Below are positions 58,801 to 59,670 of a DNA stretch of 64,000 nt, one piece after another; within the stretch, counting starts at the first letter, position 1, and each line of letters opens with the position of its first letter. The DNA lies in sequence record PZ386966.1; one strand, written 5' to 3'. This stretch comes from a phage. A model generated the notes under the pieces. That model did no database searches. It worked only from the letters and a program-made list of their open reading frames with translations, and was not told where the DNA came from. Both the position numbers and the translations under genes were made by a program.

Positions 58801-58874
58801 CAGAAGACCAATTACAGCAAACTTAATCTTATTCATCTGAAGGTAAATCGGACAAAGAAGAGATTTGGTCTGGT
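58801..58874 (+). repeat. inter-tRNA element R1 (CAGAAGACCAATTACAGCAA ... TTGGTCTGG)
   Basis: Arms AGACCAA/TTGGTCT complementary; see R2-R4. Confidence 0.6.
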
Positions 58875-58884
58875 CATTAAGAAT

Positions 58885-58961
58885 TGCGGGTATAGAGAAA
58901 GGGCGTCTCACATGTCTCATTAGCATGGTATCGGCAGGTTCGACTCCTGCACCCGCCTCCA
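58885..58961 (+). tRNA. tRNA, anticodon CAU (Met or Ile2-type), 1:72 mismatch
   Basis: Acceptor, T-arm GCAGGTTCGACTCCTGC, anticodon loop CTCATTA, CCA. Confidence 0.45.
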
Positions 58962-58967
58962 AATTTA

Positions 58968-59032
58968 CAGAAGACCGTTTACAGCAATATTTATTAAATT
59001 TTTAGCGGAAAAATTGAAAGATACGGTCTGGT
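58968..59032 (+). repeat. inter-tRNA element R2 (CAGAAGACCGTTTACAGCAA ... ACGGTCTGG)
   Basis: Arms AGACCGT/ACGGTCT; covaries relative to R1. Confidence 0.6.
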
Positions 59033-59044
59033 AATACTAAACAT

Positions 59045-59121
59045 GGTTAGGAAGCACATAAGGTATGTGCGGTCGCCTGTTAAGCGAATGGCACAGGGTT
59101 CGAATCCCTGACTAACCGCCA
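59045..59121 (+). tRNA. tRNA-Asn (GUU)
   Basis: Loop CTGTTAA, D-stem GCAC/GTGC, T-arm CAGGGTTCGAATCCCTG, CCA. Confidence 0.6.
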
Positions 59122-59190
59122 AATTTAGGAGAGAAGCGATTGCTCACCGATTTGTAAGGTGCAAGTCCTTAGCCTGAATAGAAATTAAAT

Positions 59191-59278
59191 GTGTCGTTAT
59201 CCCGTAGATGGTAGCGGTGGGGACTGTAAATCCCTTGTCATTGAGACTCGGTAGGTTCGACTCCTACACGGCACACCA
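59191..59278 (+). tRNA. tRNA-Tyr (GUA), long variable arm
   Basis: Loop CTGTAAA, acceptor GTGTCGT/ACGGCAC, T-arm GTAGGTTCGACTCCTAC. Confidence 0.6.
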
Positions 59279-59284
59279 AATAAA

Positions 59285-59362
59285 GGTTATGTAGTTTAAT
59301 CTGGTTAAAATACTCCCCTGTCACGGGAGATGATGAGGGTTCGAATCCCTTCGTAACCGCCA
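59285..59362 (+). tRNA. tRNA-Asp (GUC)
   Basis: Stem CTCCC/GGGAG with loop CTGTCAC; T-arm GAGGGTTCGAATCCCTTC. Confidence 0.6.
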
Positions 59363-59449
59363 AATTATAATAAGTATTTCAAAATGATGTTTTGAGAGGG
59401 CTATTTAGCCCCTCCCTTAAAGAGTTCTTACGAGTATTCTTTAAAGGAG

Positions 59450-59525
59450 CAGAAGACCAATTACAGCAAGTACGTATGATATTTTCAAGCCAATTTAATT
59501 TTGAAAAATTTAAAACTTGGTCTGG
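59450..59525 (+). repeat. inter-tRNA element R3 (CAGAAGACCAATTACAGCAA ... TTGGTCTGG)
   Basis: Same arms as R1. Confidence 0.6.
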
Positions 59526-59538
59526 CTCAACAAATTTA

Positions 59539-59670
59539 CAGAAGACCGTTTACAGCAAACTTTAAACAATCTATTTCTCCGGTAAAGAAAAGGCGAAGGT
59601 TCGATTCCTTCACTCGGCAGATGTCGAGTTGGTGTAATGGTAGCACTTAAGATGATAAACAACGGTCTGG
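59539..59670 (+). repeat. inter-tRNA element R4 (CAGAAGACCGTTTACAGCAA ... AACGGTCTGG), encloses a T-arm-like GAAGGTTCGATTCCTTC
   Basis: Arms AGACCGTT/AACGGTCT. Confidence 0.55.

What the first reader, a model, noticed from the sequence alone, without database searches (positions are those of the whole stretch)
58801..59670. Four copies of a covarying stem element CAGAAGACC(NN)TTACAGCAA ... (NN)GGTCTGG preceding tRNA genes
Copies at 58801, 58968, 59450 and 59539 share a 5' arm and a distal 3' arm that are complementary, with compensatory changes: ACCAA..TTGGT in two copies and ACCGT..ACGGT in the other two. Each lies just upstream of a tRNA, and the enclosed sequence varies from ~40 to ~110 nt. 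This fits conserved leader or processing structures (RNase III/E/P entry sites) or small structured RNAs, reminiscent of stable RNAs in the T4 tRNA region.
Basis: seen in the sequence. Interest (0 to 1): 0.55.

Follow-up and report, generated by a model that had tools for sequence, protein, structure and literature searches.

The report
Phage Y-RNA-like RNAs beside Ro60-like gene
The four repeats are real small structured RNAs of a widespread, undescribed phage family that sits next to a Ro60-like protein gene, so they are most likely that protein's missing "Y RNA" partners rather than tRNA processing signals.

Summary
The four copies are exact, covarying, and on the + strand only. The window is a Felix O1-like phage.

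Each copy has a 4-bp outer helix, an AGA/G internal loop and a 7-bp inner helix. Single-stranded UUACAGCAA follows the inner helix, then a variable insert. The insert of copy 4 is a circularly permuted tRNA-Thr-like domain with a capped acceptor stem, ordered as in bacterial YrlA Y RNAs.

Relatives give significant sub-threshold Rfam hits to YrlA. The short forms resemble Dictyostelium Class I RNAs: AAG, stem, UUACAGCAA, stem, CUG.

A 2024 preprint noted the Ro60-like fold and only guessed that Y RNAs exist; it did not identify them. Protein binding is inferred here, not shown.

The parts
58798..58876 (+). Copy 1. Outer helix UGAC/GUCA (58798-58801 / 58873-58876), loop AGA (58802-58804) opposite G58872, inner helix AGACCAA/UUGGUCU (58805-58811 / 58865-58871), motif UUACAGCAA (58812-58820), 44-nt insert.
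   Evidence: Rfam RF01414 19.7 bits
58965..59034 (+). Copy 2. Outer helix UUAC/GUAA, loop AGA/G, inner helix AGACCGU/ACGGUCU (58972-58978 / 59023-59029), motif 58979-58987. The 35-nt insert holds the hairpin AUUUUU-AGCGG-AAAAAU; a similar hairpin occurs in L017 5632.
   Evidence: RF01414 20.1 bits
59447..59528 (+). Copy 3. Outer helix GAGC/GCUC, loop AGA/G, inner helix AGACCAA/UUGGUCU (59454-59460 / 59517-59523), motif 59461-59469. The 47-nt insert holds the hairpin UUUCAA...UUGAAA.
59536..59673 (+). Copy 4. Outer helix UUAC/GUAA, loop AGA/G, inner helix AGACCGU/ACGGUCU (59543-59549 / 59662-59668), motif 59550-59558. The 103-nt insert holds the tRNA-like domain.
59574..59646 (+). Circularly permuted tRNA-Thr(GGU)-like domain inside copy 4. 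In order: anticodon-type hairpin 59574-59590, T arm 59595-59611, acceptor 3' strand 59612-59618, cap loop AGAU, acceptor 5' strand 59623-59629, D arm 59632-59646.
   Evidence: Rfam tRNA partial hit, 24.7 bits. ARAGORN calls tRNA-Thr(ggt) after in-silico re-permutation. The capped acceptor stem covaries fully in three forms.
56686..58101 (+). Ro60-like protein gene (471 aa; Pfam DUF2828 + DUF7788/vWA; PHROG 850 'RNA-binding protein'). Proposed protein partner of the four RNAs.
   Evidence: Bas63 gp130 in PMC11482910
58120..58240 (+). Two sigma-70-like promoters (TTGACA-17-TAATAT and TTGACA-18-TAAAGT) at the head of the tRNA / Y-like RNA transcription unit. No + strand terminator-like site lies between them and copy 4.
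   Evidence: consensus matches only

Best explanation
The four elements are genes, or cistrons within the tRNA polycistron, for small non-coding RNAs of a Y-RNA-like family. I propose that they assemble with the phage's own Ro60-like protein, encoded at 56686-58101.

Each RNA is closed by pairing of its 5' and 3' ends. The terminal A-A-G / C-U-G, a 7-bp covarying helix and, in this phage, an extra 4-bp outer helix form the closing module. The invariant single-stranded (U)UACAGCAA lies at the start of the internal loop. Together these form the proposed protein-binding module. It is positionally equivalent to the stem plus GNCGAA/CGAA motif of known Y RNAs.

The variable insert is the effector module. 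Copies 1-3 carry a simple hairpin. Copy 4 carries a tRNA-like domain derived from a permuted tRNA-Thr, ordered T arm, capped acceptor stem, D arm, as in YrlA.

By analogy with Ro60/Y RNA/PNPase complexes, the RNAs would gate the Ro60-like ring or tether it to host enzymes such as exoribonucleases or tRNA-binding enzymes. This may be part of the anti-defence activity reported for the orthologous Bas63 gp130.

Shown here: the RNA family, its structure and covariation, its linkage to the Ro60-like gene, and the fold of the protein. Inferred: expression as discrete RNAs (released by RNase P and 3' trimming of flanking tRNAs), binding to the protein, and the downstream function.
For: - Four exact copies against 0.07 expected. 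A descriptor derived only from distant phages finds exactly these four in 64 kb on both strands, against 0.065 expected.
- Both helices covary within the window. The changes in Moogle (AGGCCAA/UUGGUCU and AGACUGU/ACGGUCU) give G.U pairs only on the + strand.
- In 75 loci with homologs at 39-63% identity, 145 of 216 motif occurrences have the anchored helix, against 48 in shuffles. 61 of 75 loci hold at least one element, and 101 of 145 elements lie within 500 nt of the gene ends.
- Features not used in the selection are conserved: anchor G in 124/145, +2 G in 118/145, and the extra pair col6-col37 paired in 61/70 as AU/UA/GC.
- 11 of 14 such loci have no tRNA gene.
- Rfam YrlA hits relatives that carry tRNA-like inserts: L017 5716-5831, 42.1 bits, E 6e-6 to 4e-8; L062, 43.5 bits. 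That model aligns phage ACAGCAAAU to the YrlA Ro-binding motif.
- Independent literature: Bas63 gp130 is Ro60-like, lies directly upstream of the tRNAs and counters the Ppl defence (PMC11482910). A Thermus phage Ro60 binds phage Y-like RNAs and host PNPase (PMC12135203).
Against: - No binding or expression data exist.
- The canonical Ro-binding motif GNCGAA(N)G is absent; ACAGCAA stands in its place.
- No window copy reaches any Rfam gathering score. Copy 4 gives no YrlA hit at E<=10.
- Pfam TROVE does not match the protein.
- Adjacency to the gene could reflect co-transcription or cis-regulation rather than a protein-RNA complex.
- About a third of the 145 anchored helices could be chance (48 expected).
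Confidence: 0.6

Rival explanations
1. Autonomous structured sRNAs or decoys that act without the Ro60-like protein. They might bind a host protein or a defence nuclease, or act as a tRNA mimic that sequesters tRNA-directed enzymes. Gene adjacency would then reflect only shared early expression.
For: The structure and covariation are solid. Copy 4 carries an intact T loop / D loop elbow and, in KPS64 and SUSP2, a canonical CUGGUAA anticodon loop. The Dictyostelium look-alikes bind an RRM protein, Rnp1A (PMC7919456).
Against: The linkage to the DUF2828 gene is tight and orientation-specific across very distant phages, including loci with nothing else in common. Y RNA genes flanking Ro60 genes are the established pattern (PMC4201824).
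Confidence: 0.2
2. Leader, spacer or processing structures of the tRNA precursor (RNase III/E/P entry sites).
For: In this window the elements lie between tRNA genes in one transcription unit. They start 6-7 nt after a tRNA 3' end and end 12-13 nt before the next tRNA.
Against: 11 of 14 related loci with the same module have no tRNA genes. Elements also occur in tandem with each other (copies 3 and 4 here; L017 and L021-L050). The helices are only 7 + 4 bp. The conserved part is single-stranded.
Confidence: 0.08
3. Copy 4 is a functional circularly permuted (split) tRNA-Thr(GGU) gene. RNase P and 3' trimming / CCA addition would open the capped acceptor stem, and the closing stem would hold the two pieces together.
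For: After re-permutation ARAGORN calls a complete tRNA-Thr(ggt) cloverleaf for the window and for KPS64. The Moogle/HP1 cap loop reads GCCA after the acceptor 3' strand. M. smegmatis YrlA is cut by RNase P and CCA-tailed (PMC4201824).
Against: The acceptor stem shrinks to 5 bp with a 6-nt loop in KPS64 and SUSP2. The anticodon arm and variable loop are degenerate in Moogle and HP1. The window has C33 instead of U33. Distant relatives cap the stem with UUCG or GNRA tetraloops. Copies 1-3 have no tRNA parts.
Confidence: 0.07
4. DNA-level repeats: recombination or homing-endonuclease target sites, or a miniature mobile element spreading among tRNA genes.
For: An HNH endonuclease ORF sits in the cluster (58361-58717). 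Some relatives lack segments between copies (H159, H160), as expected from recombination between 20-nt repeats.
Against: The motif shows strong strand bias (ACAGCAA 69 against 13 downstream of the gene). Sequence is free but pairing is kept. Substitutions tolerate G.U on the + strand only. The four copies are syntenic across genera.
Confidence: 0.03

Closest known systems
Bacterial and phage Y RNAs of the YrlA type (Rfam RF02553; Chen et al. 2014, PMC4201824) and the Thermus phage phiLo Yrl1/Yrl2 (PMC12135203)
   Same: - The 5' and 3' ends pair into a terminal stem.
- A conserved short motif lies on the 5' strand at the start of the internal loop.
- The genes lie next to a Ro60-type protein gene on a phage genome, in several copies.
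- One member carries a tRNA-like domain ordered (V)-T arm-capped acceptor stem-D arm; others lack it, as YrlB does.
- Relatives of copy 4 score E about 1e-6 with RF02553.
   Different: - The motif is (U)UACAGCAA rather than GNCGAA(N)G.
- The terminal AAG/CUG signature is not described for Y RNAs.
- The partner protein is DUF2828, which Pfam TROVE does not recognise.
- No window copy reaches RF02553 even at E<=10.
- Copy 4 keeps a whole anticodon-type arm.
- The RNAs are embedded in a tRNA cluster.
Dictyostelium Class I RNAs (Rfam RF01414; Kjellin et al. 2021, PMC7919456)
   Same: - Length is about 55-65 nt for the short forms.
- A short covarying stem joins the 5' and 3' ends.
- The ends are conserved: AAG...CUG(U).
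- A conserved motif lies directly 3' of the 5' stem strand and shares the 9 nt UUACAGCAA.
- The remainder is variable and A/U-rich.
- RF01414 is the only non-tRNA family hitting copies 1, 2 and 4. It hits short relatives at 25-30.7 bits, always beside the DUF2828 gene.
   Different: - All scores are below the gathering threshold of 41.5.
- The motif sits 1 nt closer to the anchor G.
- The window copies add an outer helix and an AGA/G loop.
- There is no DUSE promoter.
- Class I RNAs are eukaryotic, reported as unique to Dictyostelia, and their known partner is the RRM protein Rnp1A.
- Whether Dictyostelia have a DUF2828 or Ro60-like protein was not testable here.
Circularly permuted tRNA genes (Cyanidioschyzon merolae, some archaea)
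   Same: In copy 4 the 3' part of a tRNA precedes its 5' part, joined acceptor-to-acceptor by a short linker and flanked by a helix formed by the transcript ends.
   Different: There is no bulge-helix-bulge motif and no splicing endonuclease in bacteria. The break lies at position 26/27. The acceptor cap and anticodon arm decay in relatives. The closing module is shared with three RNAs that have no tRNA parts.
T4 stable RNAs (species 1 and 2) in the tRNA region
   Same: Small stable RNAs of unknown function encoded among phage tRNA genes (from general knowledge; not tested here).
   Different: No sequence or structure comparison was possible with these tools. No link to a Ro60-like protein is known for T4.

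Membership tests
Y RNA / YrlA (RF02553) | Terminal stem formed by the 5' and 3' ends | tested here: met
   All four copies have a 7-bp inner plus 4-bp outer helix, and both covary.
Y RNA / YrlA (RF02553) | Ro-binding motif GNCGAA(N0-1)G near the 5' end | tested here: not met
   The motif is UUACAGCAA. The YrlA model aligns ACAGCAAAU to acgGCGAAUG in a relative, but the consensus itself is absent.
Y RNA / YrlA (RF02553) | tRNA-like domain ordered V, T arm, acceptor-like stem-loop, D arm | tested here: met
   Met in copy 4 only: 59574-59646. The same order is seen in L007, L017, L020, L027 and L068.
Y RNA / YrlA (RF02553) | Score at or above the Rfam gathering threshold (69 bits) | tested here: not met
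   No hit to any window copy at E<=10. Relatives reach 42-43.5 bits, E 2e-6 to 4e-8.
Y RNA / YrlA (RF02553) | Encoded next to a Ro60 ortholog | tested here: inconclusive
Y RNA / YrlA (RF02553) | Physical binding to the Ro60 protein | not testable with these tools
   Needs EMSA, RIP or a structure.
Dictyostelium Class I RNA (RF01414) | Short covarying stem joining the ends, with conserved AAG start and CUGU end | tested here: met
   The window has GAAG...CUGG. Across the family the anchor G is present in 124/145 and the +2 G in 118/145. The definition comes from PMC7919456.
Dictyostelium Class I RNA (RF01414) | 11-nt motif directly 3' of the 5' stem strand | tested here: met
   UUACAGCAA is identical to 9 positions of the Rfam consensus CUUACAGCAAU. 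Its position is shifted by 1 nt.
Dictyostelium Class I RNA (RF01414) | Score at or above the Rfam gathering threshold (41.5 bits) | tested here: not met
   Window copies score 19.7, 20.1 and 14.7 bits. The best relative scores 30.7 bits. No hit reaches gathering in 15 loci.
Dictyostelium Class I RNA (RF01414) | DUSE promoter about 60 nt upstream; dictyostelid genome | tested here: not met
   This is a phage genome with sigma-70-type promoters and a polycistronic context.
Circularly permuted tRNA gene | The two halves reconstitute a complete, conserved cloverleaf with a functional anticodon loop and a processable acceptor end | tested here: inconclusive
   ARAGORN calls tRNA-Thr(ggt) after re-permutation. 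However, the window has C33, and the acceptor cap and anticodon arm degenerate in relatives.
RNase III processing site | About 20 bp or more of near-continuous double-stranded RNA | tested here: not met
   The helices total 11 bp and are interrupted by a 3x1 loop.
Known self-cleaving ribozymes (Rfam) | Match to hammerhead, twister, pistol, hatchet, HDV-like or hairpin models | tested here: not met
   None is listed at E<=10 over 58700-60650.

The most novel reading that the evidence does not exclude
The phage RNAs and the Dictyostelium Class I RNAs are one RNA class. Both show the terminal AAG/CUG stem plus UUACAGCAA. The natural partner of this class would be a DUF2828-type Ro60-like protein. 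On that reading Class I RNAs, published as unique to dictyostelids and of unknown mechanism, are Y-RNA-type RNAs. DUF2828 proteins (phages, mimivirus-like sequences, plants) would define a second, unrecognised branch of Ro60/Y-RNA ribonucleoproteins spanning viruses and eukaryotes.
Probability: 0.3. Interest if true: 0.9.

Novelty: new variant of a known kind. Interest (0 to 1): 0.75.

Why it matters
- **Concrete candidates for Bas63.** Felix O1-like phages are therapy and typing phages. Their Ro60-like protein was recently reported to counter a bacterial defence (Ppl), with no RNA partner identified. This analysis supplies four candidate RNAs with defined binding and effector modules, so the ribonucleoprotein can now be tested directly.
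- **A large unannotated family.** The RNA family occurs in at least 61 of 75 diverse phage loci examined. It is absent from Rfam, and some records annotate members as 'tRNA-Thr' or as hypothetical ORFs.
- **More evidence for tRNA origins.** Y-type RNAs appear to be built repeatedly from permuted tRNAs, here from tRNA-Thr and elsewhere from tRNA-Tyr.
- **A lead on an open question.** The near-identity of the core module with Dictyostelium Class I RNAs suggests an unexpected, testable way into the 20-year-old question of what those RNAs do.

Tried and rejected
- **Known ribozymes and other Rfam families.** Nothing appears over 58700-60650 except tRNA and the weak Class I hits.
- **Mini covariance model.** A model built from 70 closing modules of distant phages (R1) could not span the 35-103-nt inserts and gave only noise. 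I replaced it with an anchored descriptor and shuffles.
- **MAFFT on full-length short elements.** It put the 3' strands out of register (A2). I used ungapped mini-constructs instead (A3). Pairs 7-12 of A3 are complementary by construction. Only pair 6-37 and the flanking G are independent evidence.
- **Lax helix search.** A first search (any 6-8 bp helix within 260 nt) had a high false-positive rate: 42% on the control strand. I did not use it for conclusions.
- **Fold search against afdb50.** I wanted it to see eukaryotic DUF2828 homologs, but the library is not available.
- **Avesson et al. 2011.** This paper lists the proteins bound to Class I RNA. It is not held.
- **Literature searches.** 'Permuted tRNA' plus phage, DUF2828, and the motif string found no description of these RNAs.
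- **Other structural ideas considered and dropped.** The helix/loop geometry does not fit a bulge-helix-bulge motif, a k-turn, hairpin-ribozyme loop A or an integron attC-like DNA structure.

Full report
**Context.** The window is a Felix O1-like myovirus (Ounavirinae). The 1.2 kb around the finding matches 333 phage records at 80-99% identity, mostly Felixounavirus, with relatives on Salmonella, Shigella, Citrobacter, Klebsiella and Erwinia. The finding lies at the head of a + strand cluster of 24 ARAGORN tRNA genes plus one tRNA found only by Rfam, spanning 58267-63556.

**Observation.**
- CAGAAGACCNNTTACAGCAA occurs four times with no mismatch, at 58801, 58968, 59450 and 59539. Nothing else matches with up to 3 mismatches on either strand, against 0.07 expected.
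- The distal arms are complementary exactly as described.
- Folding each copy gives the same closing architecture: a 4-bp outer helix, an internal loop with AGA on the 5' side and G on the 3' side, and a 7-bp inner helix AGACCNN/NNGGUCU.
- UUACAGCAA follows the inner helix and is unpaired in every fold.

**Close relatives.** All four copies are present and syntenic in Mooglevirus (Moogle, HP1, KPS64) and Suspvirus (SUSP2). The two substitutions seen in the stems (Moogle AGGCCAA/UUGGUCU and AGACUGU/ACGGUCU) give G.U pairs on the + strand and would be A.C mismatches on the other strand. This points to an RNA structure in the sense of transcription. The inserts of copies 1-3 are simple A/U-rich hairpins. 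Some hairpin types recur in very distant phages: UUUC-NNGCAUA-GAAA and UUUUU-ANNGG-AAAAA.

**Copy 4.**
- Its 103-nt insert contains, in this order: a 5-bp hairpin with a 7-nt loop (CCGGUAA; CUGGUAA in KPS64 and SUSP2), a canonical T arm (GAAGG-UUCGAUU-CCUUC), a 7-bp stem closed by a 4-nt loop (ACUCGGC-AGAU-GUCGAGU), UG, and a canonical D arm (GUGU-AAUGGUA-GCAC).
- Rfam's tRNA model matches the first two thirds at 24.7 bits.
- When the 3' piece is moved in front of the 5' piece in silico, ARAGORN calls a complete tRNA-Thr(GGU) for the window and for KPS64. The insert is therefore a circularly permuted tRNA, opened between the D arm and the anticodon arm and capped at the acceptor end.
- The capped stem covaries completely: ACUCGGC/GUCGAGU here, ACACG/CGUGU in KPS64 and SUSP2, ACCCUUC/GAAGGGU in Moogle and HP1.
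- Its length and loop are not those of a processable acceptor end in all phages, and the anticodon arm decays in Moogle.
- T arm, capped acceptor stem, D arm, closed by the RNA's own 5' and 3' ends, is the architecture described for bacterial YrlA Y RNAs (PMC4201824).

**The neighbouring protein.**
- The ORF at 56686-58101 ends 166 nt before the first tRNA. It carries Pfam DUF2828 and DUF7788/vWA and belongs to PHROG 850, 'RNA-binding protein'.
- An AlphaFold2 model from a 32-sequence alignment (pLDDT 78, pTM 0.76) has Ro60 structures as its three best Foldseek hits in the PDB. The best is 1yvp_B, E 7e-7 over the full length.
- A profile search places the invariant DVSxSM on the MIDAS motif of Ro60.
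- Pfam TROVE does not match, so this is a Ro60-like fold in a different sequence family.
[quoted passage not shown] **The family beyond Felix-like phages.**
- The protein has more than 2800 homologs, mostly in phage contigs of 75-390 kb. I fetched 80 viral loci plus three others.
- In Yersinia phage P778, and in 143-kb and 149-kb contigs with only 48-54% protein identity, the gene is followed by a promoter and tandem elements of the same design with different stem sequences: GGACUGU/ACAGUCC, GGAUUC/GAAUCC, GAAGCU/AGCUUC, GUAGUU/AACUAC. The motif is the same, (U/A)UACAGCAA or UUC(A/C)GCAA.
- Using an anchored descriptor (G, six bases, the motif, then a complement of the six bases within 260 nt), 145 of 216 motif occurrences on the gene's strand have the helix, against 48 after shuffling. 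61 of 75 loci hold at least one, and 101 of 145 lie within 500 nt of the gene's ends.
- Features not used for selection are strongly conserved. The anchor is G in 124/145. The base two positions after the 3' strand is G in 118/145. The pair just outside the selected helix is a standard pair in 61 of 70 distinct modules, as A-U 48, U-A 10 and G-C 3.
- The consensus is therefore 5'-A-A-G-[5-6 bp]-N-U-A/U-C-A/C-G-C-A-A ... [5-6 bp]-C-U-G-3'.
- The same descriptor run on the whole window returns exactly the four copies and nothing else on either strand, against 0.065 expected.
- Elements fall into three size classes: about 55-65 nt, about 100-140 nt with tRNA-like inserts, and about 230 nt.
- Several mid-size members have T arm, acceptor stem capped by a UUCG or GNRA tetraloop, and D arm. 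One is visibly derived from tRNA-Tyr.

**This is not a tRNA processing signal.** Of 14 element-bearing loci checked, 11 have no tRNA gene anywhere in the roughly 9 kb held, yet the elements still sit directly beside the Ro60-like gene. The motif is strongly strand-biased: ACAGCAA occurs 69 against 13 times downstream of the gene. No known ribozyme or other family matches.

**Comparison with known families.**
- Rfam's YrlA model gives significant but sub-threshold hits to relatives of copy 4: L017 5716-5831, 42.1 bits, full model length, E 6e-6 in 64 kb and 4e-8 locally; L062, 43.5 bits. The gathering score is 69. In that alignment the phage ACAGCAAAU is placed on the YrlA Ro-binding motif acgGCGAAUG.
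- The window's own copy 4 is not detected by that model.
- The only other family that hits the elements is RF01414, Dictyostelium Class I RNA. Copies 1, 2 and 4 score 19.7, 20.1 and 14.7 bits. Seven short relatives score 24.9-30.7 bits, all on the gene's strand within about 900 nt of the gene and nowhere else in 64 kb. The gathering score is 41.5.
- The resemblance is specific. Class I RNAs are 42-65 nt and start with AAG. A short covarying stem joins their ends, an 11-nt motif lies directly after the 5' stem strand, and they end in CUGU (PMC7919456). The Rfam consensus GaUcuC-CUUACAGCAA...GagAuC-UG shares the 9-nt UUACAGCAA with the phage RNAs, offset by one base.
- Class I RNAs were reported as restricted to Dictyostelia, and their known partner is an RRM protein.
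- I could not test whether dictyostelids encode a DUF2828 or Ro60-like protein. The needed library and paper were unavailable. DUF2828 does occur in plants and in mimivirus-like sequences.

**Mechanism (inferred).**
- The four RNAs are transcribed from the promoters at 58120 and 58211 as part of the tRNA polycistron.
- They are released by RNase P cleavage of the downstream tRNA and by 3' end processing of the upstream one, then trimmed to the outer stem.
- The terminal stem plus UUACAGCAA binds the Ro60-like protein.
- The inserts, which are conserved as distinct types over long distances, give each particle a different specificity. Copy 4 presents a tRNA-shaped surface.
- By analogy with Rsr/Y RNA/PNPase and with the Thermus phage complex (PMC12135203), the particles would recruit or gate host RNA-processing enzymes. 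They may underlie the anti-Ppl activity of gp130.
- None of these steps is shown here.

**Verdict.**
The tRNA-leader reading is wrong as a general explanation.
- The elements are best filed as a new variant of Y-RNA-like RNAs attached to a Ro60-like (DUF2828) protein. They fail the formal Rfam thresholds of both YrlA and Class I RNA, so I do not call them members of either family.
- I am about 0.9 confident that they are conserved structured RNAs linked to the Ro60-like gene. I am about 0.6 confident that they are its binding partners.

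Noticed in passing
window 60147-60182 (region 60054-60300, between tRNA-Ile and tRNA-Arg): A short reading frame, GCA AAC GAC AAT GTT TTT CTG GCA GTA GCT TGA TAG, encodes ANDNVFLAVA**. It resembles a tmRNA tag (E. coli ANDENYALAA) and lies downstream of the best promoter-like site of the region (60069-60097, 11/12). Rfam gives weak hits: tmRNA_permuted 59995-60179 at 29.2 bits and tmRNA 60111-60300 at 15.2 bits. ARAGORN calls no tmRNA. The peptide is identical in Moogle, HP1, KPS64, SUSP2 and L006, with only synonymous changes (GAC to GAT, TGA to TAA). 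It may be a phage tmRNA-like element.
   Followed up: partly
window 59672-59815: Another structured RNA lies between copy 4 and tRNA-Lys. A stem of about 23 bp (UUAUCUUUGUAGAUAAG.../...CUUAUCUACAAAGAUAA) encloses about 100 nt. MFE is -48.3 kcal/mol with z = -5.1. It is conserved in five relatives, with 11 pairs changed on both sides. It has no Rfam match and lacks the UACAGCAA motif. The stem is long enough to be an RNase III substrate.
   Followed up: partly
window 58361-58717 and 58719-58790: An HNH endonuclease ORF (Pfam HNH) is inserted between tRNA-Pro and the next tRNA. In Moogle, KPS64, HP1 and SUSP2 the two tRNAs are 6-10 nt apart with no ORF. The tRNA at 58719-58790 (Rfam 55.4 bits; tRNA-Glu(TTC) in relatives) was missed by ARAGORN.
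   Followed up: partly
L040 4790-5036, L046 5398-5636, L066 5750-5940, L082 5754-5944, L021-L050 around 5478-5715: A long class of the same family (about 190-250 nt) directly follows a short element downstream of the Ro60-like gene. Near its 3' strand it carries a conserved block, GCCGAG(G/C)CGAAGAAUACGAA. This block contains the canonical Ro-binding-type motif GNCGAAG. This class is not present in the window.
   Followed up: partly
L076 3754-3855; L007 5821-5985: Other ways of fusing tRNA parts to the same closing module. In L076 the insert is a non-permuted D arm, anticodon arm and T arm, with the module's stem in place of the acceptor stem (Rfam tRNA 41.3 bits). In L007 the insert is a tRNA-Tyr permuted within the anticodon loop (GGAGUCUGUAAA...).
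   Followed up: no
window 56233-56604; L005 3558-3917; L006 3575-3946: A DUF5681 protein gene (123 aa; PHROG 4114, unknown function) directly precedes the Ro60-like gene in this window, in L005 (Yersinia phage P778) and in L006. It is not seen in this position in the more distant L007.
   Followed up: no
Public records REP5 (OQ174504.1), REP9, HP1 (OK539913.1), UAB_Phi87, LinBro and others: Copy 4 is annotated as 'tRNA-Thr' in some records and overlapped by 'hypothetical protein' CDS in others, for example HP1_22 at L002 1656-1784. These are probably mis-annotations of the RNA.
   Followed up: no
Phage records ESCO45 (OM386661.1) and FG1m (PP068123.1): Only the last or first 34 nt of the copy 4 query match. 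This suggests deletions between the 20-nt repeats, so copy number varies among close relatives. L006 has three copies.
   Followed up: no
L005 6990-7400 (Yersinia phage P778); window 60380-60615: Further tRNA-like fragments and unexplained spacers lie in the tRNA clusters. Examples are T-arm-containing stretches not called as tRNAs in L005 and a weak tRNA-Sec-model hit at window 60522-60596 (23 bits).
   Followed up: no
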